Source: Pristiophorus japonicus (Eukaryota). From it: a DNA stretch of 64,000 nt. The position numbers and the translations under genes are program-made. Position 1 is the stretch's first letter; each line of letters starts with the position of its first letter. The stretch covers positions 104,842,001 to 104,906,000 of the forward strand of contig NC_091989.1 of the NCBI RefSeq assembly GCF_044704955.1, read 5' to 3'. A model generated the notes under the pieces. The model searched no databases, was not told the origin of the DNA, and was given only the letters and a program-made list of their open reading frames with translations. Of the stretch, positions 7,252-64,000 are shown one piece after another.

Positions 7252-8603
7252 TATAGGCCAAATTCGGACAAATATCTGGATGGTAACAGCTAATTTTTTT
7301 CTTCCGTATTTGCTGTAAAACTCTCAAGTCTCCCTCCTTCCTCCCAAAGCAGCCACATCACACCGAGACACGCCTTCAGTCCCTCTCAGCTCCCTCTCTC
7401 TCTGTCTTCTCTTCTGCGCATGTCATGATGACCCTTGACCTCCTGAATCACGGGAATAGAGCATTGTCATGCCCTTGCTAAGGATGCCGACACTTTACAG
7501 CAGAAGGGTAGCGAGATTTAACGCTACTGCCCATTTCATATCGCTCGCGGTAATGCCCAATTTCAAAAATGGAGACTAGGTGCTTTGAGAATGGGCGAGA
7601 ACCCGGCGATCTGAAAATCCATTTTTCTACCTCCCATGCCAGAAATAATGGCCATTTTTGGGTGATATGCTCAAAAGTGTAAAATCTCGCCTTTAGACTT
7701 GACTTTAGGAGGTAAGATTAGTAAGTTTTCAAATGATGCTAAAATCGGCTGTGTGGTTGTTAATGAAGAAGAAAGCTGCAGACTGCAGGAAGATATCAAT
7801 GAACTGGTCTGGTGGGCAGAACAGTGGCAAATGGAATTCAATCCGGAGAAATGTGTGGTATGCATTTGGGGAGGGCTAACAAGGCAAGGGAATGCACATT
7901 AAATAGTAGGACACTGAGAAGTGTAGAGGAACAAAGGGACCTTGAACCTTGGAGTGCCTGTCCACAGTTCCCTGAAGGTAGCTGGACAGGGGGATAAGTG
8001 GTTAAGAAGGCACACGGAATACTTGTCTTTATTAGCCGAGGCATAGAAGAGTAGGGAGGTTATGCTTGAAGTGTTTAAAACACTAGTATGACCACAGCTA
8101 GAGTACCGCGCACAGTTATGGTCACCATATTATAGCAAATATGTGATTGTACTAGATGGGACTGGAGAATTTTAGCTATGAGAAAAGAATGGATAGGCTG
8201 GGGTTGTTTTCTTTGGAAGAGAGGAGACTGAGGGGAGACCTTATTGGCGTGTATAAAATTATGAGGAGCCTAGATAGAGTGGATAGGATGGACCAATTTC
8301 CCTCAGCAGACGGGCCAACAACCAGGGGGCATAGGTTTGAAGTAAGTAGTAGAAGGTTTAGAGAGATTTGAGGGGAAATTTCATCACTCCAAGGGTTGTG
8401 GGGGTCTGGAACTCACTGCCCGAAAGGGTGTGGAGGCAGAAACCCTCACCACATTTAAAATGTACTTGGAGGGGCACTTGAAATGCCGCAACTTGCAGGG
8501 CTATGGACCAAGAGCTGGAAAGTGGGATTAGGATTGATAGCTGGCGCGGGCACGATGGGCCAAAATGGCCTCCTTCCATGCTGTAAGTTTCAATTTTTCT
8601 ATG

Positions 8604-31409: not shown

Positions 31410-31464
31410 ATGTCGGTGAGAGCAACAGTTCAGTGCATGGCTCTTCTGGGCATCCTTTGGCCAG
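31410..31464 (+). CDS. Exon 1: signal peptide MSVRATVQCMALLGILWP
   Basis: ACCATG start, hydrophobic core, CAG|gtacct phase-1 donor. Confidence 0.8.
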
Positions 31465-34400
31465 GTACCTCGAGTTGTTATATGTTTCAGTTCTGAACGG
31501 CAAACTCTATTTTAGAAGATTCTACAACTGTTGTCTTTTGTAAAGTTACTGTGCTTTTCCAATTTGATTGCTGGTGTTTCTTAACTATTCTTGTATTTGA
31601 CGTCTCTTAATTATTTTTCTTTATCTGATGTGTGCAACTGTTATCGCCATTCTTGTTAATTTTCCGATAGCCGTTGAAGTAAATTCGAGCAAAGTGGACC
31701 AATTCCCTGAACACATGGAGGTTGCCAGGGGCACAAATGTTTCCATGTTCTGCACATTTTCCATATTTCAAGATGCCCCCGATGTTTATTGGTGGAGACG
31801 CGGCGACCAGACGTTTCTGCAGCCAGACAGCAGAAAGCAATTTAATGTTAAAAAGGGCAGAGGGTCATTTGATGTCCTCAATGCGAGTGTCGCAGACTCT
31901 GGAATGTATTACTGTACAGTAAAACATAATCAAACCGATGTTGGAGATGGAAGTGGCTCCCGGCTTACTGTGTTCGGTAAGTGCCATTGTGCCGGGGAGT
32001 GGGAGATTCTCAGCAGTGTGCGGTATATGTAAACCTTAATTGTGGGGGTCATTTGAACTTTTATCACTGGACGAAAACCTGGTGATAGCAAATTCGTTTT
32101 ACACTTCTCCCGATTTTCTTTTGCATTGACCCCGGTGTACTCCGGCCCGCCGATTCGCTATCGACCATTTTGCGCTACTGCCCAAGATCAATTTCACCCC
32201 TTCATTGTCCGCATGCAATTCCAAAGGGTTTTATATTCAATGAGTTATTTGGAAATGCAGTTACAGTTGTTATGGAGGTAAGATACTGAAAGAGTATACT
32301 TGTTTAAATCTTGGCTTAAAATGATTAACTTGGATTAGGTGGCCAGATTTCTTATCACCAAAATATCGGTGCCGAGTAGCGACATTGGAAACAATGTTAA
32401 CACCTCTTAGGTCAAGTCTTTTATATAATATTAAAGGTCATCTGCCCCACCCAATGTCTTGCTACAAACCTGTTTATTTCACACATCAGGTAACCTTTTG
32501 AAATTGCCAATCTAATATTTTATATTCTGAATTGCCCAAAATATGGAATTCCCTCTCCCAGAAGGCTGTGGATGGAGAAACAATTGAAGCTTTCAGTATG
32601 AAGATGGATAGATTTCATTAGGCACGGGTATCAAGGGATATAGAGTTAAGTGGGATAAACGAATTTGAGATACAGATCAACCATGATCTAATTGAATGGC
32701 CTGTTCCTATGTCCGCAGTTTAAGCTATGCACTTGCTTCCATTGAGAACTTATTTGAAACTGCCAAACTAATTTCACAAAGGAATCTTACAACCCATTGA
32801 GAGGGGCTATGTTGTTCTTACCCTCATTACTGGATTGGAACCCAAGTCCTAGAGCTGATGGGGCAATGTAGGAACCCAATGACTGCTTGAAACTCGGTCT
32901 TATGCCAATTGAACTTTTTTATACACTCACAACCGGGCAGGATATCACTGAACATTTCTCTAAACGCATGGGCTCCCGTATTTGTACTTGATGGTTTCCA
33001 TTTACACTCCCCCTCAACCCGAGACTGCAATTACGGCAGGAGATCAGAGAACACCGAAGCCGCCACCTCCACGGAAATTCTGCCGCATTACATATTAGAT
33101 ATAAACAGATCCATGGGGAAGGAATGGAGGAATTCTAATCTTAGGTTGGGCAGTCAACACGGTGCTGCTGGGAATAAAGGACAAAATAATTTTCCAAGTT
33201 AATAATGCCCTGATTTAATAAATTGCTATTGCTACAAAGTCGGACAAGTAAAAATGTAAGGAAAAATGTTAAGGAGATTGCTTATAATAAACCGGCAAAA
33301 CAATGCAAACCTAACGAGGGACTCTATTTCCAGCTAAAGAGTATCTGTAGCTTCAGCGGACAGAGGGTCACCTTAGTAACAGACGATTGTAGGACTGATA
33401 TAAGCAGAATCTTCTTCAGGCGAAATGTGTTCAACAGAGCGAATAGACTTGGGGAAGGGCAAAAACCCTGGAATTATATAAGACATGCATTCTGAGTTAG
33501 GATTTCCTATTGGGTTCCCCCCATCTGTATGGATGTTGTGATCTACACAGAGATACACAATTATCTATCTCACCCTTTCGTGACGTGATATCTATTCCAG
33601 CCCTCGGTTCGCGCTCTGGAGAAAGTACATTAAGGAAAGCTGCATGATCTGAAATCTCCCCCACACAAACTGAAATGCTGAATTAGCAACTGGAATGCGC
33701 GAATTCTAATCTATAGATTAGCAGCATCCAGTCTGCCGTCTGTGTAGACGACGGAGATATTTCAATATATTATGTACATCACCTCAATATTCACCGATAA
33801 TTTTAGATCATACATCGAAATATCTCTGTCTACACGGAATGTTGTGCAATATATGAAATATCCGAAAAAGGACCAATTTTGAAATTATCACACAAAATGT
33901 TTAACACCGTAAACATTATTAATGAATAATTGGGCCGTTCCCACTGTTCGTGTAGACTGCGCTCTCTCCGATATATTCGGACAGGAACCTCCCTCGGAGT
34001 CACAATCGCACGCCAGGATCTGATACTTCCATTGAGAACAGTGATGCGAGCCTCCCTGTATGTTACCGATCCTGGGACATTGACCCTGTTTGCGTACCGT
34101 TTCCAATACCCATCATTTCGCTCTGCAGTGCAATCTATAAAATAAATGCAAACAAGTTTAAAAAACGATAGCGCGGATAACTATTGTTAACTATACGGTA
34201 ACCGCATAAGGAGGGTAGGTAAATGAGAATGTCTTCCTTTAAATTGAAATAAAATGATCAATGTAATTTTTTTTCTCTGTTAAAGTTCCCCCAACCCCCC
34301 TAAAAATCGTTGCTGTCGAAGGGATTTCAGCGACTTCTCTGAAACTCGAGTGTAAAACGGCTGGCTTTTACCCGGAGCATTTAGAAATCTCCTGGCGAAG

Positions 34401-37400
34401 AGATGGTGTCGCAAATCTGACCGGAATAGCAACAGGAATACGAAACAGGAGTGCGGAGGAACTGTATGAGGTTTCCAGCTGGTTGGAAGTAGCACAGCCT
34501 GCCCACAGCGGAGTTGTTTATACATGTCTGGTATCTCATGTCTCTCTTCGGGTGCCCGCCAATGTCAGCTACACTGTACAGCAAGGTAAGATTAGAACAT
34601 TTACAGCGGGGAACTGCTCCAACCTGTATTTACTAATTAACAAGTAGCTGGGCAGCTGTTCAAACCCAATGATATTGGGTAACTGTGAATTGTATTTACT
34701 GTTAATGTCACATCAATGGGAATGAAATAAAAATATTCAAAACATGGAGTGAAGGAGGGAGACTGTCTCCATGGAAGATATTTGATAGGGTGTTCAAAAT
34801 CATGAGGAGTTAGAGAGTAGATAGAGCGAATCTGTTCCCACTGGCAGAAGGTTTGACAACCAGAGGACAATGATTTAAAATGATTGGCAGAAGAACCAAA
34901 GATGACATAAGCAAAAACAGTTTTACACAATGAGTGGTTAGGATCTGGAATACACTGCCTGAAAGGGTGGTGGAGGTAAACTCAATTGAGGCTTTCAAAA
35001 AGGATCTGGCTAAGTACCTGAAGAAAAAAAATGCAGGACCCGCAGGACCATGGGAAAAGGGCGAGGGAGTGAGACTAGCTTGTTTTTTCTTCTTTCGCAT
35101 GGTAGTAGCAAGGCAAATCAGATATCAAAGTCAGATATCCAGGCCAAAGCTCCCGGTGTATCTGCAAATTTCCTTTGAGGTCAGTGCTCAATGATGTACC
35201 CCAGGGTCTGATTAGGAGCTCCATAGTTGCTGATGGGGATGCTTTAATCTTCCACCTATGGAGAAGGTGGCAGCATCTACATGACAGGTTCTGAGGTGGT
35301 AATTGCTTGTTACTGTTAGCAAGGAAGGTTTGATCCTTCAGGTCGTACTGTGAGGTCCTTATAAGGACCATGTCACAGTTCTTCCAAGCACTTTGCCATC
35401 GGTCATCAAGGCTAAGGGGAGATTGCTGAAGGGCTTCAGCTATGGCCCAAAATGGCCTTCCAGATTTGAAATTGTTTGGTGGTATTTTCTACAAATCAGC
35501 CTGGATCAGTATGTCTTTGCTGGTGTACCAGTTATAGTCTCTGGAGACTGCGTAATCGCACTGCAGGTGTGGTGATGTGATGTTTGCAAGCACTGGCAGC
35601 CAAGTTGTTGGTGTGGATGGAAACATAGTGGGACAAGCTGAAGTGCTCCTGCAGAGAGCTGGCATGGACTCAATGGGCTGAATGGCCTCCTTCTGTGCTG
35701 TAACCATTCTATATTTCTATGGAGAAATCCGCAACAGGAGATTGATGTGCGAACTGCTCAAAAGCAGAAAGATTATTCCTCCTCAAATGAAATGAAATAA
35801 TGCAACAAATTGATCCATTCTACAAGATTCGCTTGTACATCCTGTGTATTTAAATGTAATATATGGAACTGTCGATGGGTAGATGCTCTCTGGAGTGTAT
35901 AAGGTGAGAGGTGATCTCATTGAAACATATAACCTTCTTAGAGAACTTGTTGAGGAAGATGCTGAGAGGTTGTTTCCCCTGGCTGCAGAGCCTGAAACTA
36001 GGGGGCACAGTTTCAGGATAACAGGTCGGCCGAGATGAAAAGGAATATTTTCATTCAGAGGTTTGTGAACCTTTGAAATTCTCTGCCCCAAAGGGATGTG
36101 GATGCTGAGTAATTGAGTATAATCAAGGCTGTGATCGATAGATTTGCGAACTTTAAGGTAATAACGCGATCTAGTGATTGGGTGGGCAAGTGGAGTTGAG
36201 GTCGAAAATCAGCCACGATCTTATTGAAGGCTCGAGGGTTCGTATGGCCTACTACTGCCCTAATTTGTATGTACTTATTATGTTCATCTGTTCTCATCGC
36301 ATCGTGCCTTCAGCTGTCTAGACTGTAAACTTTGGAATTCCCGCTCTAAACCTCTTCTCTTCTGTACCTCGCTCTCCTTCTTTAAGACGTTCCAATCCCC
36401 TACTTCATCCTGTCCTAATTGTGACTCGGTCTCAAATTTTCGATAATGCTCCTGTGAATTGACTTGGGACGTTTTAATATGTTAACGGCGCTATGTAAAT
36501 GCTAGTCGTTCTTGTTGCCTATCAAAAGTTGCAATAGGTTCCCTCCAGTAAGGCTGGTCAGGGATGGCAGCACTGGAGAATGGACGACTTGATCAATTTT
36601 TGTAGTCGGTGCCCATCAATCAGATGTTGCACGGCTAGGTAAAACATGAAACTCTCTTTACTCTTAATTAGCAACCCTCGTGTGCAGAGAGAAACTTCCT
36701 GGGCCTTTATGTAATGAGATTTGTTTTCTCGAAAAATTGCATCACTGACTTGCAGTTAACTTCGTTTGGTACACGTTATAATCCTTGCACATCTGCAGCC
36801 CATAGAAATAAAAGAGGTCGAGCCCCACTGACAGTAAGTGGGCGCCATCATCCCGAGAGGCACCTTTGGAACTCGCCCTCCTGGCCGGACCCATGATTCG
36901 CTGTGTATATCTCTCTCTATATTCTACCGTTTCTTATTTCAATTACCTGTTGATCCTGTAGGTCCTGGTGCCATTGTTCCGGTGATTTTTGGATCTGCAG
37001 GGGGCGCATTGGCAATTTTACTCTTAATTATAATTTTGACGAGACTCAGATTAAAGTCATCAGACGGTAAGAACCTTTCTTATTTAGCCGAAACCGTTTG
37101 TTTTCTGCGGTCCAGTTGTAGTGTTACAAAATCGAAAGGGCGGAAGAAAAGGGATTGATTGTAGAGGAATAAAGTGCACTTTACTGTCTATATCTTTAAA
37201 GAATGAAGCTAATACCACAAGAGCGTTATGTGGTTGGCGCTAGTTGAATATGACAACGTAAACCGAATCTTGAAATGCAAATATTCGAACAATTCACTCA
37301 AATCATACACTTCAATTTCGCAACACTCGGAATCCTCAATGTTCTGCAATATTTTAGCATCAGTCCGGGTCCAGATCTTGAAGAGTAAACACTTTGCGGT

Positions 37401-40400
37401 AGATGTTGACTTTTTGCGATAGTGTAAAACGGATGACAGCGAATTGGCAGCCTGCTTTACATCTCTCCCGATTTTTATTCCCATTGAAGTCACAGAGAGA
37501 GATGTAAATGAACTGCCGACTCACTATCACCCGTTGTACACTATCGCACAAAGTGTGGGGGTACTCCATCGGGTGCAGCGTCACTGCGGGGTCTGAGACG
37601 GTACTACACTGTAAGGACTGGTACTTCTAAACACCTTCAATCAGATCTTTACCGTCAGATCTCCTTATTTAACAAAGTAAAGTCAACCAACATCAACTCA
37701 TGTTGGCTTTGCCGGTACACAGATTAAGTTATTCAAGATGTTTTTTTTTCCTTTAGGCATTAAGAGAAATTCTGAGGAAGCGGGTCAGATTGAAGAACCG
37801 GTAGGACGACAATGTTCTTTATGTTCCTAAAAGAGGTGGCTGGGGGAAGAGCAACACAATATACATTCAGCCGAGATTACTTATATTTCATAGAATCATA
37901 AACTCTTACAACACAGAAGGAGGCCATCGTGCCTGTTCCGGCTCTTTGAAAGAGCTATCCAATTAGCACCCCCCCCCCCCCCCCCCACACCCCCTATTTA
38001 CCCATAGCCCTGCAATTGTTTTCGTCTCAATTCCCATTTTCTAAATTTTTACTGAATCTACTCCGTCATCCTTACAGTCAGTGCGTTCCAGATCAGAACA
38101 GCTGGCTGCATAAAAATACTCCTCATCTTCTCTCTGGTTCTTTTGCCAATTATCTTAAATCTGTGTCATTTGGATACCAACCAACCCACCAGTGGAAACA
38201 GTTTCTCCTTATTTACTGTATCAAAACCCATCAGAATTTTGAACACCTCTACTACATTGTCCCTTAACCATCTCTGCTCCAAGGAGAACAATCGCAGCTG
38301 TAAGATCCTCCAATAGGCTGGGCTGGCTGAGGAATAGGAAGGTGGCCCACACCCCACCATCAGGAGAGTAGAGAGATAGAGATAGTGAAAACCTTCAGAG
38401 GAGTAGAGAGATAGGGAAAATTGGGGATGGGAAGGGGGAAATGAGCAATGTATTCATAGGATATTTATTAGCTGTGCTCTAAATCATCCTGACTTTAAAC
38501 GTAGGTAAATAATTTGTGTGCTATGGGTTTCATAACACGCAATAATCCACACCTTATGGGTGAGATATTGGCTAAAGTCATTGTGAGTGCGGACAGAATG
38601 TATTCGTGCCCATACCTATCGGTTACTGTGTGCATATTTACACTTTCAGACTCAGTTCCAATTGATGGTAGCTGGCAGCTGTAAGGGATTCACCACTATC
38701 AGTATTCGATGTCTTATTCTTACAGGTTGTTGCCTACACTACTCTAAACTTGAGAGACAACAGAGGACCTCCCAAACGGAGACAGGAGAAAGAGCAGACC
38801 ATCTATTCCCAGGTAGAGCAGAGGGTCTGGCGCCAATAATATCCAAATCATTTCCATACAAAATCAACAGAGGCAATGTCAACAATCTGTATAGAAACGT
38901 GGTGGTAATTTTGACTTTGTGCAACAGTGTAATAATCATGGGCGATTTTAACTTTCATATTAATTGGACAAAGCAAATTGGCCAGGGCAGCCTTGAGGAA
39001 GATTTCATAGAGTGTTTCCTTGAACAGTACATTGCGGAACCAACCAGGGAGCAGGCTATTAATAGATCTGGTGCTGTGTAATAAGACAGGATTCATAAAT
39101 GATCTTGTAGTAAAGGATCCTCTGGGAATGAGTGACCATAACATGGTTGAATTTCAAATTCAGTTGGAGGGTGAGAAAGTTGGTTCTCAAACTAGGGTCC
39201 TTAGCTTAAATAAAGGGATAACCATACGTGGCTAACTGAAGAAATAAGGGAAGGGAAGGAAAATAATTGAAAACAAGGGCATACAATGTGGCCAAGATTC
39301 GTGGGAGGCCAGAGGATTGGGAAACTTTTAAAAGCCAGCAAAGAGCAACTAAAAAATGATAAAGAGAGGGATGATAGATTATGAAAGTAAACTATATGAA
39401 ACATAAAAACAGATAATAAGAGTTTCTACGTGTACATAAAAAAGAAAAGAGTGGCTAAAGTAAATGTTGGCCCCCTAGAGAATGAGACTGGGGAATTAAG
39501 AATCTTGGTAGTCTGCCGTATGCAACAAAGACGTTGATGTGCTAATCATCAATGGCATGTGGCTTCAAGTGGCTGTATAGGCCAATTCTGGATGCACATA
39601 GTCTCTTGCACGTCGGACAAGGGAAGTTCGATGTGTCTGATGCTGACAGTACCGCCACCTGATGCCGCCTATCTCTAGTGTCCCGCAGGCGTTGACATCG
39701 GCTTTCTTCGAAGGTCTGGCAGGCAGTCCTCGTGAGGGTTCACCGCTGGATTTTATTAGCTGCTGTATTCTCGAGGTCCTTTAGTCGGATGCCAGAGTAC
39801 TGGAGGTTAGCCTTGATGCAATCTTTGTAGCGCTTGCGGGGGCGCCCCTGGTGTCTTTGACCTTCACAGAGCTCGCTGTGAAGAAGCTGATGAGGGATCC
39901 TTAACTCATCCATGTGGATGACATGTCCAGCCCACCAGAACTGGGCTCGCATGATCAGCACCTCAATGCTAGTTGATTGTGCTCTCTCCAGAATCTCAAA
40001 GTTTGACACCCAGTCTTGCCAGCGAATGTGGAGTATAGATCTGAGACTGCGCATATGGAAAGCTTCCAACTTTTTGATGTGATGCCTGTAGGGTGCCCAG
40101 GTCTCACATCCATAAAGGAGAGATGAGAGAACGACTGCTCTATACACCAACAGTTTAGTTGACAGTCGGATGTTGTGGTGACAACACTTTAGTGCGCAAG
40201 CAACCAAGTGCCTGTCTGGCTTTACAGATCCTTGCATCAATTCCTTGTCCAAGGACCCATCACTTGATATGGTGCTGCCAAGGTACTTGAAGCTGTCCAC
40301 TGACTTTAGTTGTATACTGCCGATGAAGACTGTGGGAGCAGGTGCTGTGGTGCCAGGGGCAGGCTGATAGAGAACCTCGGTTTTACTAAGGCTGATGGTT

Positions 40401-43400
40401 AGGCCAAACAATTCTGTTGTCGCAGCAAATTTGCTGAGTATGAATTGTAGGTCACTCTCCTTGTGTGCCATAAGGGCGCACTCGTCAGCAAAGAGTGCCT
40501 CTAAGATGAGTCGTTTCTGTACTTTGGTCTTTGCAGCAAGGCGGCGGAGATCGAACAGTGAACCATCTAATCGATATTTCAGGTAGACCCCAAACTCCAA
40601 GTCTTTTATGGCATAGTTCAAGATGCAGGTAAAGAATAGGTTGAACAGAACTGGAGCGAGTACACAACCTTGTTTCACTCCATTTGAGAGGGCAAATGGG
40701 GCTGTGGTTGTGCCGTCTGAGAGCACTTCACATGTCATGTTGTCATGAAACAGCGCAATGATGTAGACAAACTTCCTTGGGCACCCAAGTTTCATCAAGA
40801 TTGACCACAGCGCTGCTCTGTTGACAGTATCAAAGGCCTTGGTGAGGTCAATAAATACAGCGTACAGGTCCACGTTCTGCTCAATGCACTTCTCCTGCAC
40901 TTGTCTGAGTGCAAAGATCATGTCCGCTGCGCTCCGACCAGGTCGAAAGCCACATTGTGTTTCTGGAAGATTTACTTCTGAGACACTAGCTATGAGTCGG
41001 TTCAATACTATGCGGGCGATGATCTTCCCAGCAATGGACAGAAGCGATATTCCCCTGTAGTTGCCACAATCTGCTTTGTTGTCCTTGTTCTTGTAGAAGG
41101 AAACTATCATAGTGTTACAGAAGTCCTGTGGCATGTCTTCATCTTCCCAGATGCTAGTTATTATGTCATGAAAGGCCTCGAGAGTTGCTGGGCTTACTGC
41201 CTTGTAGATTTCGGCAGGGATTCCATCCTTTCCTGGAGCCTTTCCAGTACTCATCTGGTTGATGGGTTTCTTTACTTCGTCCATGCTGGGTGGAAGATCA
41301 AGATCTTCTTTGATAGGTTGCTGGTGTATGGAGTCAAGTGCTTCTTCTTTCACTGTTGAAGGTCGATTAAGAAGATTACTGAAGTGTTCTCTCCACCTCT
41401 CATGTATGCCAGTCCTGTCTTTGATCAAAATGCTGCCATCTGCTGAAAGGAGTGGGGTAGTGCTGGGTTTTGATGGTCCATAGACTGACTTGATGGCGCT
41501 GAAGAACATCTTGCTATTGTGAGTTTCAGCATAATGTTCCACTTCCTCTGCTTTCGGCTGCCACCATTTATCTTGCATCTGGCGAAGGTCTCTTTGTGCT
41601 TTGCTCTGCATATGTCTGTAACGGTCCCTCTTGGTAATTGAGGAAGCATCATTTTGCCATTCTAGGTATGCTTTTTTCTTTTCATCCAGCGTCTTACAGA
41701 TCTCAACATTGTTTTCATTGAACCAGTCTTGGTGTACCTTCTTTTTAAGTCCAAGAGTTGTCTTTGCTGAATCTGTCACCATCTGTTTGAGCTTTGTCCA
41801 CTTCTGTGTGATGTTGCCGATGAGCGGTCCGTGAGACATCAGCCTGTTATCGAGGTCATCCTGGAACTGCTCACGGTAGCACTGATGTTTCAGCCTAGCT
41901 GTGTTAAAGGCACTTCTGCTCGGTTTTCGACGCTTGCGCTGAAGTGGAGCAATGTACAGCTGGAGAGTGGGTCTGACTAGACGGTGATCTGTCCAGCATT
42001 CTGCTCCCCGCATGGCTCGTGTGATTTTTTTACATCCTTCATATCTCGCCTTCTTACAATGACATGGTCTATCATGTGCCATTGCTTAAACCTGGGGTGC
42101 ATCCAAGTTGTTTTGTACTTGTCGGCCTGCCTGAATAGAGTATTTGTGATAGTCAAGTCGTTCTCCGCGCAATACTCAAGAGGAGGAGGCCATTACTATT
42201 TAATTTTCCTGTGCCGTGCTGTCCAATGACTCCCTTCCAGGGCTTGCTGTCTTTTCCAACTCATGCATTGAAATCACCCAGGATGATCAACTTGTCTCCA
42301 GCAGGTGTGAACCTGACCAGTCTGTCTAGATCTTCATAGAACCTCTCTTTCATCTCATCGGGGCTTGGAAGGATGGGTGCATAAGCACTTATAATGGTGA
42401 TGTGGCGTTTGGCATTCAGGGTGAAACGCAGTTTCATAAGTCTTTCGTTAATCCCTTCAGGCAGATTCGGAAACTGTTGCATAACAGAAGTCTTCACTGC
42501 TATGCCAACTCCGTGGATCCTATTCTCTTTCTCTGCCTTGCCTTTCCAATAGAAGGTGTAGCCGCTACCTAGTTCACTCATGCAGCCCTCCTCTGCAAGT
42601 CTTGTCTCACTCAGAGCTGCTATATCGATGTTATAATGCTGCAGCTCTCTTGCAATAAAGTTAGTCCTTCTTTCTGGTCTTGTAGTGTCAGCTCCGTCTA
42701 AGAGTGTGCGAATGTTCTATTGTCCGAGAAGAAGTTTTCTTGTGTTATGAAGTTTTCAACTGTTGCTATATTTTCGACCGCAGAATGGGTTGAACTGCCA
42801 GCCGCGGTATACTGGCCAGTTAATGGAAGGGCAGGCAATGTTTGGGCCACCTTTTCTAGGCCCCTCCCTTATAAAGGGTGAGCAGTGCTGTCCTAAAGAG
42901 GGCTGCTCAGTCGCCTGGGGTGCTGCCGGGTTCCTCTGCTGCCCTGGATAGAGAGTCAAATTACCACTTTCCCACAGGCCGCCTACATGCAGGTTTGAGG
43001 CTACGACTCCCAGTGATCACCTCCACCTGTCGCTTTGTCCCTCCCCCATCGCCGCAGGACTTGGTATGTTGGATGATGGTTAGCACGAACCTGTACATAG
43101 ATGCTTTTAAAGTGGGAAGGCCGGTACACAGGGGAATTAAGAATACAGAACAGGCAAATGGCAGAGACGTTGAACAAATATGTTGTATTGGTCTTCATGG
43201 TAGAAGACACTAAAACATCCCAATAGTGGATAATCAAGGGGCTATAAGGAGGTAGGAACTTAATACAATCAGTATCACTAATGAAGTTGTACTCGGTAAA
43301 ATAAAGGCGAAGAAGTTTCCTGGATCTGATGGCTTACATCCTAGGTCTTAAAAGAGGTGGCTGCAGAGATAGTGGATGCATTGGTTCTAATCTACCAAAA

Positions 43401-45531
43401 TTCCCTGGATTCTGGAGGCAGTCCCAGTGGATTGGAAAACCGCAAATGTAATGCACCTATTTAAAAAAGAAGGCAGACAAAAACCAGGAAACTATAGACC
43501 AGTTAGCTTAACATCCTGTTGTTGAGAAAATGCTAGAGTTCATTTTTAAGGAAGTGGGACATTTAGAAAAGCATAATTCAATCAAGCAGAGCCAGAATGG
43601 TTTTATGAAAGGGAAATCATGTTTGACAAATTTGCTGGAGTTCTTTGAGGATGTAACGAGTAGAGTTAATAAGGAGGAACCAGTGGATGTGGTGTATTTG
43701 GATTTCCAGAAGGCATTCGATAAGGTGCCACATAAAAGGTTACTGCACAAAATAAAAGTTCATATGGTAGGGGGGTAATATATTAGCATGGATAGAGGAT
43801 TGGCTAACTAACAGAAAACAGGGAGTCAGGATAAATGGGTCATTTTCTGGTTGGTAAACAGTGACTACTGGGGTGCCACACGGATCAGTACTAGGTCCTC
43901 AAATATTTACAATCTATAATGATGACTTGGATGAAGGGTCCGAGTGTAATGTAGCCAAGTTTGCTGATACAAACATGGGCGGGAAAGCAAATTGTGAGAG
44001 GACACAAAAAATCTACAGAGGGATAAAGGCAGGCTAAGTGAGTGGGCAAAAATCTGGCAAATGGAGTATAGTGTGGGAAAATGTGAGGTTAGCAGTAAAA
44101 TAGAAAAGCAAATTTCAATTTAAATGGAGAAAAATTGCAAAGTGTTGCAGTACAGAGGGACTTTGGGGTCCTTGTGCATGAAACACGAAAAGTTAGTATG
44201 CAGGTACAGCAAGGAAACAGGAAGGCAAATGGAATGTTGGCCTTTATTGCAAGGGGGATAGAGTATAAATGCTACAACTGCACAGGGTACTGGAAACGCC
44301 ACACCTCAAGTACTGTGTACAGTTTTGGTCTCCGTATTTACGGAAAGATATACTTGCATTGGAGGCTGTACAGAGAAGGTTCACTAGGTTGATTCCAGAG
44401 ATGAGGGGGTGATTTATGAAGATAGGATGAGTAGGTTGGGCCTATACACATTGGAGTTCAGAAGAATGAGAGGTGACTTCAATGGAAATAATATCGGGAG
44501 ATGTAAAACGGGCCGCGGATTCCCTGTCATCAGACTTACACTATCGCACACCAACATTATCCCAGTTTGTTTCTCGAGTCTGGCTGATAATGATTGCTTT
44601 GAACTACAAATTGCAGAATAAGAAACTCACCTGATCAGATTGGCAAATATCTCTGTTATAGACGAAGCAAGGAACCGATGACAGACTGACCTACGCCGCT
44701 CTCGTAACCAGCACCACGAAAAACGCGAAAGGCAGACAGGAGGAGAGCACGGTGTATGCCCAGGTACAGCTCAGGTCATTCACTGAAACACAATACTGAG
44801 CCGCAGGAAATAGAAAGGTCCCAGGTTTAATCTAGCAAGTGTGTTGTGTCGGCTGATCGCAGACAGGTTTCATTATAATTGACCTTCGTGTCCCAGGGAT
44901 CGGCTGAAAAGTACAAATGCGCGGCAGGTTCCACCTTGGAGCCTCCCCCGTGGGATCAGCAGGTCACCCTGGCTGTCGGCTCTCGCCTTAAAACGGTGCT
45001 TTGCGATATGAGTATTCCAAATATTTAACAGGCGAGTATGACATTGCTTTGTCTGCTATTTTAATTGAAATATTAACCTGCTCATGTAAATGATTTACAA
45101 CATTAGACGAACTCATTTTATATGAGCATTAAACCGGAATATTAACGAGATTTTTTCGGGCCCAAGAATGGACACTGAAGGGGAGGGCAGCTGCTCCTGG
45201 AATTGGAGCCCAACAGGAATCAGTGTTTGCCGAGCAGGGAGAAACCGGAGACAATACAATCAATCAGTACAAAGTCTGAATAAACCGCTTCCAATCTGAA
45301 GTTAGGAATTGATGAGAGGAAATTTCCCCGCAGCCTTTTTTAAACCGCAGTGTGCAATGGACTAACGGGTGCTCCTAAATGTCACTTTCACAGACTAAAC
45401 AAAGAGGCGGAGATAAGCTGACTTACACCGCCCTGCAGTTTGCTGATTCTAAGAAAACATCAACATCTAAACACCAAGGCCAGGGCGCGGTGTCTGCAGA
45501 AGTGAACCTGAGAAACAAAGAGAGGAGCTGA
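31410..45531 (+). CDS. SIRP-alpha-like / VJ-C1 Ig-superfamily inhibitory receptor, 378 aa; join(31410-31464,31671-31976,34286-34585,36962-37066,37757-37800,38726-38812,44662-44763,45394-45531)
   Basis: All introns are GT-AG with consistent phases (1,1,1,1,0,0,0); 1137 nt open frame; leader, V, C1, TM and three ITIM exons in canonical order. Confidence 0.88.
31671..31976 (+). CDS. Exon 2: V-set Ig domain with germline-joined J-like G strand
   Basis: VSMFC...VYWW...DSGMYYC...GDGSGSRLTV; tttccgatag acceptor, G|gtaagt donor; 306 nt. Confidence 0.95.
34286..34585 (+). CDS. Exon 3: C1-set Ig domain (absent from the ORF track)
   Basis: LECKTAGFYPEHLEISW...YEVSSWL...YTCLVSHVSL; ttttctctgttaaag acceptor, G|gtaaga donor; 300 nt. 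Confidence 0.95.
36962..37066 (+). CDS. Exon 4: transmembrane segment
   Basis: GPGAIVPVIFGSAGGALAILLLIIILTRLRLKSSD; basic stop-transfer residues; G|gtaaga donor. Confidence 0.92.
37397..37560. mobile_element. Palindromic MITE of about 160 bp; relatives at about 9766-9872, 32045-32200, 44476-44555, 58760-58912 and 59270-59455
   Basis: Arms ttgcgatagtgtaaaacggatgacagcgaattggcag / ctgccgactcactatcacccgttgtacactatcgca are reverse complements. Confidence 0.7.
37757..37800 (+). CDS. Exon 5: juxtamembrane cytoplasmic exon GIKRNSEEAGQIEEP
   Basis: Strong tttttttttcctttag acceptor; phase 1 to phase 0; gtagga donor. Confidence 0.75.
38726..38812 (+). CDS. Exon 6: ITIM exon A (VVAYTTLNLRDNRGPPKRRQEKEQTIYSQ)
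   Basis: cttattcttacag acceptor; ITIM VAYTTL; CAG|gtagag donor. Confidence 0.85.
38913..44478 (+). mobile_element. CR1 LINE in intron 6, split by an RTE insertion (pieces 38913-39503 and 43131-44478)
   Basis: APE motif IIMGDFN before the RTE and RT motifs (VYLDFQKAFDKVPH) after it. Confidence 0.88.
39504..43130 (-). mobile_element. Full-length RTE-clade (BovB-like) LINE with a 14-bp TSD
   Basis: APE (IAALSETR, ISAYAP, ILGDFNA) and RT (QCGFRPGRS, GVKQGCVLAP, LFADE) domains; TSD ggggaattaagaat at 39490-39503 and 43131-43144; a few stops and frameshifts. Confidence 0.95.
44662..44763 (+). CDS. Exon 7: ITIM exon B (TKQGTDDRLTYAALVTSTTKNAKGRQEESTVYAQ)
   Basis: ctctgttatag acceptor; ITIM LTYAAL; CAG|gtacag donor. 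Confidence 0.85.
45394..45531 (+). CDS. Exon 8: terminal ITIM exon C (TKQRGGDKLTYTALQFADSKKTSTSKHQGQGAVSAEVNLRNKERS*)
   Basis: ACTAAC branch point at 45361-45366, cactttcacag acceptor; ITIM LTYTAL; TGA at 45529-45531. Confidence 0.87.
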   Translation, partial: TKQRGGDKLTYTALQFADSKKTSTSKHQGQGAVSAEVNLRNKERS

Positions 45532-45980: not shown

Positions 45981-45986
45981 AATAAA
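45981..45986 (+). terminator. Polyadenylation signal of the receptor gene
   Basis: AATAAA 450 nt after the stop, followed by T/GT-rich sequence. Confidence 0.7.
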
Positions 45987-49326: not shown

Positions 49327-50584
49327 CAGGTGCAGCGTCCAGAATCCGGAACCCTTGGGACCAAGTCCGTTCCGGATTTTGCGCTTTGCCAGAATTTGAA
49401 ACGTCTTTCTGATGTCACGAATCCGGAAACATCCGAGCCCAGGTTCGGGTGTTTCCGGATTTTGGAACATCAGAAAGAGGGGGAGGGGGGATGGCCATCG
49501 ATGAGCTGTTCGGGTCGCCAGGTGGGGCCCCACAACCGTGGAAGTGTTCGGGCGGGGCCCCGCCGCTCTGGAGTTGTTCAGGCCGGGCCCCACCGCTGTG
49601 GAGTTGATCAGGCGGGACTTCGCTGCCATGGAGTTGTTCGCACGGGCCCCGCGAAGAGGAGATATTCTTCGCATGGGCCCCGCCAAAGAGGAGATGTTCG
49701 CGCGGGGCCCTGCCACCGAAATGTTCATGCGGGGCCTCGCCGCCGTGGAGGTGTTCGGGTGGGGCCCCGCTGAAGAGGAGCTGCTCAGGTGGGGCCCTGT
49801 ACGGAGGAGGTGTTCTTGTAGGGCCCCGTCGCGGAGGAGGTGTTCGTGCGGACTGGCGAGTTGAGGCCTGAGGTTGGGCGGTGGCGGCGATGGGCGGTGA
49901 GGCAAGGCCTGAGGTCGTGCGAAGAGGTCTGAGATCAGGCGGTGGCGAGGGGTGGTGTGGCGAGGTCCGAGGTTGGGCAGCAGCGATGCTGAGGCGAGGT
50001 CCGAGGTTGGGCAGCAGCGGTGCTGAGGCGAGGCCGGAGGTTGGGCAGCGGCAGCGGTGAGGCGAGGCCCGAGGTCGGGCAGCGGAGACGGATGGTGTGG
50101 CGAGGCCCGAGGTCGGTCAGCGGCAGCGGTGAAGCAAGGCCCGGGCAGCAGAGATGGACGTTGTGGCGAGGCCCGAGGTCGGGCAGCGGCGAGAGGTGGT
50201 AGCGAGGCCCGAGGTCGGGCAGCAGTCGGCGGTGAGGCGAGGCTCGAGGTCGGGCGGCGAAGTGAGGCCTGAGGTTGGGCAGCGGCGAGAGGTGGTGTGG
50301 CGAGGCCCGAAGTCGGGCAGCGAGGCGAGCCCCAAGGTCGGGCAGCGGCGAGGGATGGTGTGGCGAGGCCCGAGGTCGGGCAGCAGCGAAGGGTGGTGTG
50401 GCGAGGCCCGAGGTCGGGCAGCGACGATGAGGCCCGAAATCGGGCAGCGGCGGCCTCAAGGTCGGCAGGTTCCTGATTCCAGAACATTTTACGGATTGCG
50501 GATAACCGTGCCACCAATCGGTTTGGAGTCCGAATTCCGGCACATTCCGGATTCCGGACCTCTGGATTTTGGACGCTGCACCTG
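49327..50584. mobile_element. Non-autonomous Tc1/mariner (Tigger/pogo-like) element filled with GC-rich tandem repeats
   Basis: TA|CAGGTGCAGCGTCCAGAATCC...GGATTTTGGACGCTGCACCTG|TA gives TIRs with a TA TSD. Confidence 0.88.
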
Positions 50585-51570: not shown

Positions 51571-54500
51571 TCATAGAAACATACAAACATAGAAACATAG
51601 AATATAGGTGTAGGAGTAGGCCATTCGGCCCTTCGAGCCTGCACCACCATTCACAAAGATCTTGGCTGATCATTCACCTCAGTATCCCTTTCCTGCTTTC
51701 TCTCCATACCCCTCGATACCTTTAGCCGTAAGGGCCATATCTAACTCCCTCTTGAATATATCCAAGAACTGGCATCAACAACTCTCTGTGGTAGGGAATT
51801 CCACAGGTTAACAACTCTTTGAGTGAAAACGTTTCTCCTCATCTCAGTCCTAAATGGCTTACCCTTATCCTTAGACTGTGTCCCCTGGTTCTGGACTTCC
51901 CCAACATCGGAAACATTCTTCCTGCATTTAACCTGTCCAGTCCCATCAGAATTTTATATGTTTCTTTGAGAGCCCCTCTCATCCTTCTAAACTCCAGGGA
52001 ATACATGCCCAGTCGATCGAGTCTCTCCTCATATGTCAGTCCTGCCATCCCAGGAATAAGTCTGGTGAACCTTTGCTGCACTCCCTCAATAGCAAGAACA
52101 TCCTTCCTCAGATTAGGAGATCAAAACTGAACAAAATATTCCAGGTGAGGCCTCAACAAGGCCCTGTACAACTGCAGTAAGACCTCACTGCTCCTATACT
52201 CAAATCCCCTAGCTACAAAGGCCAACATACCATTTTCCTTCTTCACCACCTGCTGTCCCTGCATGCCAACTTTCAATGACTGATGTACCACAACACCCAG
52301 GTCTCGTTGCACCTCCCCTTTTCCTAATCTGTTGCCATTCAGATAATATTCTGCCTCCGTGTTTTTGCCCCCAAAGTGGATAACCTCACATTTATCCATA
52401 TTATACTGCATCTGCCATGCATTTGCCCACCCACATATACTGCATCTGCCATGCATTTGCCCACTAACCTGTCCAAGTCACCCTGCACCCTCTTAGTGTC
52501 CTCCTCACAGCTCACACCACCACCCAGCTTAGTGTCATCTGAAAACTTGGAGATATTACACTCAATTAGTTCATCTCAATCATTAATGTATATTGTAAAT
52601 AGCTGGGGTCCCAACACTAAGCCCTGTGGCACCCCACTAATCACTGCCTGCCATTCTGAAAAGGACCCGTTTATCCCGATTCTCAGCTTAATGTCTGCCA
52701 ACAAGTTCTCTATCCACATCATTACATTACCTCCAAAACCATGTGCTTTAATTTTGCACACCAATCTCTCTTGTCAAAAGCCTTTTGAAAGTCCAAATAC
52801 ACCACTCCCTTGTCCACTCTACTAATTAAATCCTCAAAAAAATCCAGAAGTTTTGTCAAGCATGATTTCCCTTTCATAAATCCATGCTGACTTGGACCGA
52901 TCCTGTCACTGTTTTCCAAATGCGCTGCTATTTCATCTTTAATAATTGATTTCAACATTTTCCCCACTACTGATGTCAGGCTAACCAGTCTATAATTACC
53001 TGTTTTTTTCTCTCCCTCATTTTTTAAAAAGTGGTGTTACATTAGCTACCCTCCAGTCCATAGGAACTGATCCAGAGTCGATAGGCTGTTGGAAAATGAT
53101 CACCAATGCATCCACTATTTCTAGGGCCACTTCCTTAAGTACTCTGGGATGCAGACTATCAGGCCCCCAGGATTTATTGGCCTTCAATCCCATCAATTTT
53201 CCTAACACAATTTCCCGCCTAATAAGGATTTCCTTCAGTTCCTCCTTCTCACTAGAACCTCGGTCCCTTAGTATTTCCGGAAGGTTATTTGTGTCTTCCT
53301 TCATGAAGACAGAACTAAAGTATTTGTTCAACTGGTCTGCCATTTCTTTGTTCTCCATTATAAATTCATATGAATCTGACTGCAAGGGACCTACATTTGT
53401 CTTGACTAATCTTTTTCTCTTCACATATCTATAGAAGCTTTTGCAATCAGTTGTTATGTTCCTGGCAAGCTTCCTCTCATACTCTATTTCCCCTTCCTAA
53501 TTCAACTCTTTGTCCTCCTCTCTGAATTCTAAATTTCTCCCAGTCCTCAGGTTTGCTGCTTTGTTTGGCCAATTTATATGCCTCTTCCTTGGATTTAACA
53601 TTATCATTAATTTCCCTTGTTAGCCACGGTTTTGCCACCTTCCCCATTTTATTTTTACTCCAGACAGGGATGTACAATTGTTGAAGTTCATCCATGTGAT
53701 CATTAAATGTTTGCCATTGCCTATCCACCATCAACCCTTTAAGTATCATTTGGCTGTCTATTCTAGCCAATTCACGTCTCATACCATCGCATTTACCTTT
53801 CCTTAATTTCAGGACCTTAGTCTCTGAAGTAACTGTGTCACACTCCATCTTAAAGAGTTCTACCATATTATGGTCACTCTTCCCCAAGAGGCCTCGCACA
53901 ACAAGATTGCTAATTAGTCGGAGTGGCCAGAGCAGCGAGAGTTCGTCGTTGAGGAGCGGGAGGTCGGAGGGAGGCCTATAAAAGGCCTATCAGTTGGAGC
54001 GGCGGGAGTTCATCATCGAGGAGTGGGAGTTCTGAGGGAGGCCTATAAAAGACCCATCAGTCGGAGCGGCGGGAGTTCATCATCGAGGAGCGGGAGTTCG
54101 GAGGGAGGCCTATAAAAGACCCATCAGTCAGAGCGGCAGGAGTTCGTCGTAGAGGAGCGGGAGGTCGGAGCGACGCCTATAAAAGGCCCATCAGTTTGAG
54201 CGGCAGGAGTTCGTCATGAAGGAGCAGGAGGTCGGAGAGAGGCCTATAAAAGGCTCACCATTTGGAGCGGCGGGAGTTCATCAAGGAGCCCAGCTGGTGC
54301 AGCTGCAGGGAGAGAAGGCAAAAAAGAAGTAGAAAGAAATTGAAGGGTGGCATCACGGCCAGGGGGTAAGTGATTGGCTGGTGATTGGTGAGTAGTTTTT
54401 AAAAAAAATCTTTTCCTTTATTGGTAGGTAACCTTTATCATTATTGTTGCCAAATTAAGTTAATCTAGGGGTTAAGTCATGGCAGGAGAGTTCAGACATG

Positions 54501-61386: not shown

Positions 61387-61944
61387 TGTATGGGGTAAAT
61401 CACATAGGGTTAATTATGATATTTAGTCATTTCATAGGGTGTCTCTGCTCCCATGCCCCGTAGAATGTTGTTGCTATTTCGAGAGAGAGAGAGGGAAGCG
61501 ACCTTGAGATGCACACCAGCTTGTTATGAGACGGTCCGCGGCTTGAGCTCTCATGCTTTGTGGACAAGCACCTGGGGCCTTACAGATTAGGAGTTGGCCA
61601 AAAGCCACACGCACCCATGTTTTGTTCAATAGTATATTTATTTGATAGTATAAAGGTACAGCACTGTCCCGTAGCTCTTCGAACTTCGCCTTGGACCGTG
61701 ATTCGCGAGCGGTGCCGCGACCCCCCAATGCTCCAGACCAGCCGTCGCTTGTGGAGTTCCCGACGGGCAGAAGGCCGTGAGCGTTGTTGCATCTTATCAT
61801 ACTTCTCTTTTCTTCATAAACTGCATTATTAATGTTTCTTTTCTCTCAGTAAATGGTAGCTTATTCTTTACTGCATTTGTCTTGTCTCTTATTTAACATT
61901 CATCCAGATCCTGAACCTGGGTCTATTATTATTGATCCAAAACA
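61387..61944 (+). mobile_element. 5' LTR of an endogenous retrovirus
   Basis: TG...CA termini, TATAAA at about 61649, immediately followed by a PBS; the 5' boundary is inferred from where the CR1 tail stops. Confidence 0.72.
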
Positions 61945-61947
61945 TTT

Positions 61948-61965
61948 TGGCGTCACGAACAGGAT
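61948..61965 (+). other. Primer binding site complementary to tRNA-Ser(CGA)
   Basis: TGGCGTCACGAACAGGAT is the reverse complement of a vertebrate tRNA-Ser(CGA) 3' end as I recall it (ATCCTGTTCGTGACG+CCA). Confidence 0.8.
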
Positions 61966-61972
61966 CTGGTAA

Positions 61973-64000
61973 AATGTTTAAGAGAAAAGACAAAAAGCAG
62001 TCTCCTCCTGCGGGAGAGAAGTATAGAATACCAGGGTGGAGCACGAGGGATGAGGGTTTTGGCTCTCTTGCCAAGGTGCTAGCCCAGTTTGGACCCCCAC
62101 AACATGGGGATACACCGTTATTGGAACAGAACAAAGATAGAGCCGTACCCCACGCGATACTGTCTCTCCTGGAGGAAGCGGGCTTCCCACAGGAGAAAAA
62201 TAGTCCCCCAGAAATGGGATGGATTTTGTTGATAGCCTGAAGGGCGATGTGTAAACAACTGAAGGAAAGTGAGGCAGAAAACCTACAGTTTAAAAACAGC
62301 TGTTAAGGTTTTGAAAAGTCAAAACTCAACCCTGACTGAAGCGGTCTGCACTGCACAAGAACGGGCTGACAAGGTCAATGAATAATCAGAAACTTTAATA
62401 TGCCATCTGGCGACAGTACAAATTAAAAAGAAAGCTAGACGATGGAAATTACAGCTGGATTTGAAATATATCTTTTGTATTGCACTGATCTGCTGCTGCA
62501 TGTGGTATGGGCTTGCTCAATTAGATCCCAGTGAGTGTTTAAAAGCCCATGCAAAATCATGTGGGGAATGTATACAAGCTGGAAAAAATGGAGAGAGGGG
62601 GGAATAGGAGGAAACTAAAGACCCTCCCCCATACGCTCCGAGCATGGAAGCTAGACCTCTTACGACAAATAAGACGAAACAGCAAGATGGGGAACAGCTG
62701 GTAACCACTGGAGGGGTGCGTGACTTCACCACTAGTGAGTTACAAGAAATGGTTACTGTAGGGGTCCGGCAAAAATATCCCTCTGATTGGGAAGGGGAGG
62801 TAAAACCTTGGACTACTATGGCGGAGGGTGCGATACAGTTGTGCAACATGGCAACACAGGGAGGAATATATCACCAACAATCTGTGGGGCCAGATCAGGA
62901 GCTCTTTACGGCAGGAATGCGGAGCAGGCTGATGAAGAGTGGACCTCCTATGATGAGGGGTACGCTGCTGGCATTATTGGGACCAACCCAAGGGCAGCAG
63001 GTGGGGCACGCCTGCCTATTGTTAGGACAGTTAGAGGATGTAGAAGATCTCCTCGACTAGGGGTGTGGCCGGCATCCGGGAGCACCCCCCGTTAGAACCA
63101 CATCAACCCAAGCTCCCAGGGATCTGAGGCCACACATTCCGATTACTTACCTGGCAGGGGAGTAACCGTAATAAGCTTTGTTGAATGAAGAAAGAATTTG
63201 TGAATGTCTGTCTGTGAATGAAAGCGCTTTTGTGATTTCTTGACTGAAAAATGAATTTTTCATGTGCCTGAAAGTCTGTTTGGAAAAATAGTGGGGCTGT
63301 CTGTTTGTTTTAGCTCCACCCACTTTTTCAAACAGAGTGAAGGTTTTTTTAACCCTTCGTAGTGTTGTCCTCTATGTGGGAAGTCTTCAGAAGGTGTGAA
63401 CCTTACAGGCGAAACCATACAAGCGCTCTTGGGGGCGGGTATTATTAGACATGCAGTGTCCCCCTACAATAGCCCTGTTTGGCCTGTGCAGAAACCCGAC
63501 AAAAGTTGGAGGATGACTGTGGACTACCGACAACTGAACAAATTTGCCTTTCCCCTGGCAACCGCTGTCCCAGATGTAGTAACTATAACAGAGCGGCTGT
63601 TTGAAGAAGGTGCGGAGTGGTATGCGGTAATCGACCTGGCCAATGAGACACATAAGGTCGGGTGAGCACAGCAAAGCTCCATAGTGCACTGGAAATGGTA
63701 TATCGCAAGTAAAGGAAAAGAAGGAATCACCCGACTACATGAGCATGTGGCTGAATACCCACAAACAGCTGAGAGTGAATTTACGCAGTCGTCTGTCAGT
63801 TTAACCCAGGAGTCACCGATCTCCTGGGGCATGTGTTTTGAACAGTTAACACCTGAAGAGCGTAGGCATGCCTGGTTCACAGATGGCTCAGCGGTCTGGC
63901 GAAATGGCCTTCGGCGATGGCGAGCCACTGCCTTCAATCCAAAAACCCAGACAATTGTGCATGATGATTGATATCGATTGGTCAAATCAAATCGCATGGG
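61973..64000 (+). pseudogene. Class III (ERV-L/ERV-S-like) gag-pro-pol remnants, internally deleted, running off window end
   Basis: RT N-terminus SPYNSPVWPVQKPDKSWRMTVDYRQLN...AVPDV...WYAVIDLAN; connection/RNase H WKWYI...AWFTDGSA; protease start RDLRPHIPIT. Confidence 0.88.

What the first reader, a model, noticed from the sequence alone, without database searches (positions are those of the whole stretch)
38726..45531. Cytoplasmic tail built by serial duplication of one ITIM+ITSM exon
Seen: three phase-0 exons share one layout. A is VAYTTL...RQEKEQTIYSQ, B is TKQGTDDRLTYAAL...RQEESTVYAQ, and C is TKQRGGDKLTYTAL...HQGQGAVSAEV. B and C begin with near-identical DNA (acgaagcaa / actaaacaa). 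In C the second tyrosine position is TCT (Ser), one base from TAT. Inference: an ancestral terminal exon carrying ITIM+ITSM was triplicated, a direct record of signalling-motif amplification.
Basis: partly seen in the sequence, partly recalled or inferred. Interest (0 to 1): 0.7.

Follow-up and report, generated by a model that had tools for sequence, protein, structure and literature searches.

The report
Shark receptor tail, three copied exons
This shark immune-receptor gene ends in three related exons that likely splice in a row to give three 'off-switch' motifs, but splicing would cut the second motif of each inner exon and a point change removes the last one, so the tail is predicted to carry three ITIMs and no ITSM.

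Summary
Three homologous phase-0 exons (A 38726-38812, B 44662-44763, C 45394-45531) end an intact leader-VJ-C1-TM gene of a clustered cartilaginous-fish paired-receptor family. Database gene models from Heterodontus and two Scyliorhinus species join the same three exons in series; no RNA run was listed for this genome. (1) The family ground state is two units (10 of 15 tailed paralogues here; ray and most chimaera models), so only B is new in this subfamily; it looks like a hybrid, C-like in front and A-like behind, as unequal crossing-over would give (permutation about 1%). (2) The 'ITSM' of A and B exists only on unspliced DNA: its Val is the GT donor. Spliced motifs read TIYSQT and TVYAQT. 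(3) C's Tyr-to-Ser loss is confirmed by a paralogue with TAT; that paralogue has instead broken exon A. The predicted tail has three ITIMs and no ITSM. The first intron bases resemble terminal-exon coding sequence, so the donor likely arose inside a copied last exon. The scan has noted this family, and the motif-cutting donor, on other genomes. Modest interest.

The parts
31410..31464 (+). Leader exon (ATG, phase-1 donor)
   Evidence: matches the N-terminus of P0009/P0035
31671..31976 (+). V-set exon with germline-joined J-like GxGSxLxV end
   Evidence: Pfam V-set E 2.5e-10; boundaries
34286..34585 (+). C1-set exon
   Evidence: Pfam C1-set E 4.8e-10; boundaries
36962..37066 (+). Transmembrane exon, no charged residue in the hydrophobic span
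37757..37800 (+). Short cytoplasmic exon S, phase 1 to 0
   Evidence: 93% identical in the paralogue
38726..38812 (+). Tail exon A: ITIM VAYTTL, second Tyr motif cut by the donor (spliced TIYSQT). 5' edge less sure: orthologue models carry 8 more residues before it
   Evidence: no micro-exon for the 8 residues found
38813..38839 (+). Read-through frame after donor A: 8 codons and a stop; would complete TIYSQV
   Evidence: use not shown
38933..44473 (.). 5.5-kb insertion in intron A-B, absent from the paralogue (intron 351 nt there): an outer LINE fragment (CR1-like label recalled) interrupted by a second LINE
39490..43144 (-). Nested LINE with endonuclease and reverse-transcriptase frames between 14-nt direct repeats (39490-39503, 43131-43144); RTE-type label recalled
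   Evidence: Pfam RVT_1 E 1.2e-32, Exo_endo_phos E 1.4e-8; repeats
44662..44763 (+). Tail exon B: ITIM LTYAAL, second Tyr motif cut by the donor (spliced TVYAQT); C-like front, A-like back
44764..44799 (+). Read-through frame after donor B: 11 codons and a stop; would complete TVYAQV; an AATAAA lies at 45279 in the intron
   Evidence: use not shown
45394..45531 (+). Terminal tail exon C: ITIM LTYTAL; second Tyr replaced by Ser (TCT, 45493-45495); stop TGA; AATAAA at 45981

Best explanation
The three exons are the homologous tail modules of an intact shark V(J)-C1 membrane receptor gene and are likely spliced in series into an inhibitory tail predicted to carry three ITIMs and no ITSM. Likely history: (1) before the shark-chimaera split a terminal exon with two Tyr motifs was copied, and the upstream copy became an inner exon through a splice donor at the Val codon (Y+3) of its second motif, which cuts that motif; (2) in a shark ancestor unequal crossing-over between the two units likely made a hybrid middle exon B; (3) because all units are phase 0 they can be skipped, lost or decay singly: here C lost its last Tyr, in the neighbouring paralogue A decayed. 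Mechanism of action (inferred from ITIM biology): ligand binding to the V domain, Src-family phosphorylation of the ITIM tyrosines, SHP-1/SHP-2 recruitment, opposed by short-tailed paralogues with an Arg in the membrane span. Shown: exon anatomy, homology, intact frame, paralogue differences. Inferred: splicing in this species, order of events, signalling.
For: The 8 exons join to 378 codons with no inner stop, 238 of 390 and 262 of 388 columns identical to Scyliorhinus P0035 and Heterodontus P0009. Those models, and P0010 and P0064, join A|B|C at the same Y-x-Q|T boundary. A, B and C each group with their orthologues in a unit tree (B clade ultrafast bootstrap 89; short alignment). Of 26 inner second motifs in models P0001-P0033 (isoforms included) 24 have Thr, 1 Ala, 1 Asn at Y+3. 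Own-genome census: tail units found in 15 genes; 10 have two, 2 have three, 3 one. Intron bases +3..+12 after 12 inner donors match the coding continuation of 11 terminal units at 45%, against 21-33% at offsets 1-5 and 26% for 19 V-exon donors. B units score C-like in the 5' half (4 of 4) and A-like in the 3' half (4 of 4 against all units, 3 of 4 within the subfamily); breakpoint permutation 201 and 269 of 20000. Between window and paralogue, B and C differ by 4 silent changes and the Tyr/Ser change; A differs by 1 silent and 6 non-silent changes including a stop and loss of its ITIM Tyr. Heterodontus isoform model P0004 skips A and B. A close paralogue (C13:104.47 Mb, V 88% identical) has an Arg-bearing membrane span.
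Against: All splicing evidence comes from automatic gene models of other species, whose read support I could not see. Donors A and B match the U1 consensus at only 6 of 9 places (as do S and TM). A-C similarity alone is not significant. The hybrid test rests on 5 related B units and shifts with gap placement; 4 of 19 true first units also lean C-like in the 5' half; introns A-B and B-C of the paralogue are only weakly alike (12 of 1000 shuffles) and the window's flanks not at all. The cut motif is not always lost: in P0055 and own paralogues L047/L049/L051 the next exon starts with Ile (restoring TxYxxI in L049), P0056 has Val there, P0046 keeps the whole motif, and model P0047 reads through. 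TCT in C is a single base in one assembly and may be an allele or an error. Orthologue models have 8 residues before A's ITIM that I could not place here.
Confidence: 0.7

Rival explanations
1. A, B and C are mainly alternative last exons: each is read through its weak donor to its own stop, giving one ITIM plus one complete ITSM per isoform.
For: Read-through gives TIYSQV and TVYAQV and a stop within 8 and 11 codons. The 9 bases +7..+15 after 12 inner donors are 52% alike against 31% for V donors, and encode a hydrophobic Y+5 residue in 10 of 12. AATAAA in intron B-C. One chimaera model reads through (P0047).
Against: Only 1 of the 64 protein records fetched ends by such read-through; orthologue models splice in series. 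Read-through lengths vary from 4 to 39 codons among paralogues and likeness falls to 39% by +16..+30. Any phase-0 GT donor reads Val.
Confidence: 0.1
2. Serial tail as in the best explanation, but B is a plain copy of one parent (C that gained a donor, or A that was partly converted), not a crossover hybrid.
For: The unit tree places the B clade next to terminal units. B's start is constrained by the shared boundary. Chimaera genes gained third units of both A-like (P0022, P0025, P0056) and terminal type (P0046).
Against: The 3' half of B units carries the A-type pattern ending E-x-T-V-Y-x-Q, and the split remains without the first three and last columns (269 of 20000); donors A and B share 9 of the first 12 intron bases.
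Confidence: 0.25
3. One reading: one ITIM+ITSM exon triplicated, giving three working ITIM+ITSM pairs apart from the Ser change.
For: Homology and shared layout; Tyr spacing 23, 21 and 23 residues; terminal units of distant paralogues end in TEYAEI-type motifs.
Against: Spliced inner motifs fail the ITSM consensus; even the paralogue's intact C motif is AVYAEV, without Thr at Y-2; two units are the ground state.
Confidence: 0.07
4. The gene is a decaying copy and the exon count has no signalling meaning.
For: Loss of the last Tyr; 5.5 kb of LINE insertion in intron A-B; many cluster members carry stops or lost donors.
Against: Intact 378-codon frame with all canonical splice sites; B and C changes against the paralogue are silent but for one.
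Confidence: 0.08

Closest known systems
RefSeq-modelled cartilaginous-fish V-C1 receptors (Heterodontus XP_067906043, XP_067905822; Scyliorhinus XP_038662960), auto-named SHPS-1-like or NCR3LG1-like
   Same: Same domain order and the same three tail units at the same boundaries; 61-68% identical columns.
   Different: Here B keeps a full ITIM (degenerate in Heterodontus), C lost its last Tyr, and A lacks 8 leading residues. I found no paper on the family in 10 searches.
SIRP paired receptors (SIRP-alpha, -beta, -gamma)
   Same: Clustered genes, near-identical ectodomains, inhibitory and likely activating members; SIRP-alpha has four tail tyrosines (PMC3716694, PMC9990587, passages). Best non-titin PDB match of P0009 is SIRP-alpha, E 1.4e-10; top Atlas feature hits are SIRP-alpha clusters.
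   Different: Two Ig domains, not three; antibody light chains score about equally (E 6e-10); CD47 binding and orthology untested; activating members have Arg, whereas SIRP-beta uses Lys (recalled).
Non-rearranging VJ genes: NKp30/NCR3, UrIg, PRARP
   Same: Germline-joined V-J exon; VJ-C1 layout as in UrIg (PMC10751288, passages); Arg in the membrane span of short-tailed members recalls NKp30 (recalled).
   Different: Single C1, membrane anchored, ITIM tail; UrIg is a multi-C antibody-like molecule; MHC linkage not tested here.
PD-1
   Same: ITIM followed by an ITSM-like motif about 23-25 residues later (PMC12151841, passages).
   Different: PD-1 has one pair, no C1 domain, and is a single conserved gene with different motif consensus.

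Membership tests
ITIM-bearing inhibitory receptor | (S/I/V/L)xYxx(I/V/L) in the cytoplasmic tail | tested here: met
   VAYTTL, LTYAAL, LTYTAL; consensus from PMC12151841 passages
ITIM-bearing inhibitory receptor | Phosphorylation and SHP-1/SHP-2/SHIP recruitment | not testable with these tools
   needs biochemistry
ITSM-bearing receptor | TxYxx(V/I) in the spliced product | tested here: not met
   TIYSQT, TVYAQT, AVSAEV; met only by read-through
SIRP family | Three Ig-like domains (V-C1-C1) | tested here: not met
   One V and one C1 exon between leader and TM; definition from PMC3716694 passage
SIRP family | CD47 binding, or orthology by synteny and tree | not tested
   No SIRP sequences in my trees; flanking genes not examined
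Paired receptors | Separate genes in a cluster | tested here: met
   38 V matches, all on contig C13
Paired receptors | Closely similar ectodomains | tested here: met
   V 88-94% identical among 5 close copies; long- and short-tailed members group by species
Paired receptors | Both inhibitory and activating members | tested here: inconclusive
   ITIM tails versus Arg-bearing membrane span with short tail; function not shown
Tandem exon duplication | Significant similarity among neighbouring same-phase exons | tested here: met
   B-C 0 of 5000, A-B 8-21 of 5000; A-C not significant alone
Tandem exon duplication | Homologous flanking intron sequence | tested here: inconclusive
   None in the window; weak in the paralogue, 12 of 1000

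The most novel reading that the evidence does not exclude
The weak donors sitting on the Val codon of the second Tyr motif are a conserved splice switch: using the donor adds another ITIM module and erases the ITSM, reading through it ends the protein with a complete ITSM (Y+3 Val, Y+5 Leu). With exon skipping, one gene would tune its tail from one to three ITIMs with or without an ITSM; in this copy, which lost its last Tyr, read-through would be the only way to make an ITSM.
Probability: 0.13. Interest if true: 0.65.

Novelty: new variant of a known kind. Interest (0 to 1): 0.36.

Why it matters
Inhibitory receptors with several tyrosine motifs are common, but the steps that built their tails are rarely readable. 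Here they are: a copied last exon turned into an inner exon by a donor that cuts its own motif, a likely crossover hybrid, at least two separate gains of a third unit in chimaera models, and single modules dying in neighbouring copies. It gives a natural series (one, two or three units) for testing how ITIM number sets inhibitory strength in an apparently undescribed shark paired-receptor family. It is not a new kind of system, and orthologous three-unit tails are already in automatic annotations.

Tried and rejected
A micro-exon for the 8 residues that orthologue models carry before A: best scores low and inside a repeat, none accepted. Flanking-intron homology in the window: none. One search's A comparisons were off by one base and were redone. 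Protein searches of the own genome with B and C found only the window and one paralogue; distant tails needed a profile on fetched stretches. Pattern search: 15 matches against 10 in the reversed control, so not enriched overall; 6 fall in family genes, and the match at C13:91.2 Mb had no gene in 20 kb. No TM or tail exon was found within 25-30 kb of the two close copies at 104.82 and 104.98 Mb. PD-1 and CD28-family identity rejected on anatomy (C1 exon, cluster). Literature: 10 searches gave no paper on this family or its tail; two papers likely to bear on shark VJ genes were not held, subscription journals are mostly missing, and no supplements were read, so absence from print is not established. 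No structure or complex prediction was run.

Full report
Observation. The three exons are present as described. Each follows an AG, is in phase 0, and has an ITIM-type Tyr followed 21-23 residues later by a second Tyr position. A (38726-38812) and B (44662-44763) end at CAG|GT; C (45394-45531) ends in a stop. Against 5000 shuffles, B-C is reached 0 times (DNA and protein), A-B 21 and 8 times, A-C 4177 and 134 times. So B ties the set together; A-C homology rests on the family alignment. Six comparisons of flanking intron in the window were not significant.

The gene. Upstream lie a leader exon, a V-set exon with a germline J-like end, a C1-set exon, an uncharged transmembrane exon and a 44-nt exon that turns phase 1 into phase 0. 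The eight exons give 378 codons without an inner stop. All 38 V matches in the own genome lie on one contig. All homologues from three protein searches were cartilaginous-fish models, auto-named SHPS-1-like, NCR3LG1-like and the like. In a V+C1 tree of 53 rows, long-tailed members and short-tailed members with an Arg in the membrane span group by species, the pattern of paired receptors.

Are the exons used in series? No RNA run was listed. Models from Heterodontus francisci (P0009, P0010), Scyliorhinus canicula (P0035) and S. torazame (P0064) join three units at the same boundary, and A, B and C each group with their counterparts in a unit tree (43 columns, B clade bootstrap 89). A Heterodontus isoform model with an accession consecutive to P0010's (P0004) goes from the short exon straight to the terminal unit. 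These are automatic models; I did not see their read support.

The ITSM. The definition TxYxx(V/I) comes from passages of PMC12151841. On genomic DNA A and B read TIYSQV and TVYAQV, but that Val is the GT of the donor. Spliced, they read TIYSQT and TVYAQT; C reads AVSAEV. In models P0001-P0033, 24 of 26 inner motifs have Thr at Y+3, one Ala, one Asn (isoforms counted). Exceptions among P0044-P0064: P0055 has Ile and P0056 Val from the next exon, P0046 keeps a whole motif in a middle unit, P0047 reads through. Own paralogues L047, L049 and L051 also start the last exon with Ile. So the cut can be repaired by the next exon, but is not in this gene. The predicted tail has three ITIMs and no ITSM.

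Unit counts. I fetched 10-30 kb downstream of 36 of the other 37 V matches, plus two pattern-led regions. Counting the window, tail units were found in 15 genes: two units in 10, three in 2 (the window and the copy at C13:105.05 Mb), one in 3, which may be cut off or decayed. The rest had none in the stretch fetched. Several two-unit genes carry stops or a lost donor. In the window's subfamily (26 rows, support 100/99) ray models and the Chiloscyllium model have two units or short tails; models may skip B. Chimaera models gained third units separately: A-like (P0022, P0025, P0056) and terminal-like (P0046). Two units are thus the ground state and B is the addition.

Origin of the inner exon. 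After 12 inner donors, intron bases +3..+12 match the coding continuation of 11 terminal units at 45%, against 21-33% at offsets of 1-5 and 26% for 19 V-exon donors; +10 is A in 12 of 12 and 11 of 11. The genes are related, so these are not independent counts. The simplest reading (inferred) is that a copied terminal exon acquired a donor at its Y+3 Val codon.

Origin of B. Misaligned crossing-over between A and C would give A, a C-front/A-back hybrid, and C. B units score C-like in the 5' half in 4 of 4 and A-like in the 3' half in 4 of 4 (3 of 4 against the subfamily only); 4 of 19 true first units also lean C-like in front, and 1 of 15 terminal units A-like behind. A breakpoint test on 5 B units gave 201 of 20000 permutations, 269 without the boundary columns. 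Donors A and B share 9 of 12 intron bases; the paralogue's two introns are weakly alike (12 of 1000). I put the hybrid origin at about 60%.

The paralogue. Its B and C otherwise differ only by 4 silent changes, while its A has 6 non-silent changes of 7, among them a stop and loss of the ITIM Tyr. Its V and C1 frames are open. It likely skips A. The window's intron A-B is 5.8 kb against 351 nt there, because of two nested LINE insertions.

How it likely works. Inferred from ITIM biology (recalled, and passages of PMC12151841 on SH2 preferences for hydrophobic Y+3): phosphorylated ITIMs recruit SHP-1/SHP-2 and damp activation; modules are added, skipped or lost singly because all are phase 0. 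The ligand is unknown. A bolder reading, regulated read-through that completes an ITSM, is not excluded: bases +7..+15 after inner donors are 52% alike (31% for V donors) and Y+5 is hydrophobic in 10 of 12. Against it, read-through lengths vary from 4 to 39 codons and only 1 of 64 fetched records ends that way.

Comparison. It works like SIRP-alpha within a paired family (PMC3716694 and PMC9990587, passages) but fails the three-domain test. SIRP-alpha is the best non-titin PDB match of the orthologue, with light chains close behind; the Atlas features agree. PMC10751288 and PMC12227049 (passages) discuss non-rearranging VJ genes (UrIg, NKp30) with no occurrence of 'ITIM' or 'SIRP'; PMC11599192 (passages) lists SIRP among VJ-type genes. 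Ten searches found no paper on this family; two relevant papers were not held. Earlier notes of the scan on other genomes describe the same family and the motif-cutting donor, and a separate Siglec-like tail triplication; none was near this place. My reading was written down before I saw them, and they are not independent support.

Verdict. Real exon duplication in a real gene; reader partly right. New variant of a known kind; interest 0.36.

Noticed in passing
L039:9477-9566 (G000:C13 about 105.0515 Mb): Paralogue's exon A has a TAG and has lost its ITIM Tyr while B and C stay under apparent constraint: a dead cassette in an otherwise open gene.
   Followed up: yes
L042-L043 (C13:104.47 Mb): Close paralogue with Arg in the membrane span and a short tail; sister of the 105.05-Mb inhibitory copy in the V+C1 tree, suggesting ectodomain homogenisation.
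   Followed up: partly
L033-L038 (C13:104.82 and 104.98 Mb): Two close copies with leader, V and C1 but no TM exon found in 25-30 kb; each is followed by a second, divergent and frame-broken C1 exon. Possibly secreted, truncated or chimeric genes.
   Followed up: partly
L047:9594, L049:8446, L051:3403: Subfamily whose last exon starts with Ile, restoring TxYxxI across the splice in L049; L047 lost the donor by a small deletion; terminal exons in L047 and L049 carry a third Tyr motif (AVYTD).
   Followed up: partly
P0046, P0022, P0025, P0056 (chimaera models): Separate gains of a third tail unit, one keeping the whole second motif by splicing two codons later.
   Followed up: partly
window 39490-43144: 3.6-kb LINE with a 781-codon open stretch and 14-nt target repeats, nested in another LINE; absent from the paralogue.
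   Followed up: partly
window 49500-50430 and 53930-54283: GC-rich tandem arrays (periods about 30-68 nt) giving long low-complexity frames with no Pfam match; 67-nt repeat in 5.3 copies.
   Followed up: no
window 3800-7300: Frames that recall PIF/Harbinger transposase and Myb/SANT pieces (recalled; no Pfam match at E 0.01).
   Followed up: no
window 61860-63057: Frames with a PPPY motif that recall an LTR-element gag fragment (recalled; no Pfam match at E 0.01).
   Followed up: no
G000:C13 84.9-86.1, 98.3-102.6, 104.0-105.1, 111.4 Mb: The family's 38 V matches lie in several separate clusters on one contig; linkage to the MHC was not examined.
   Followed up: no
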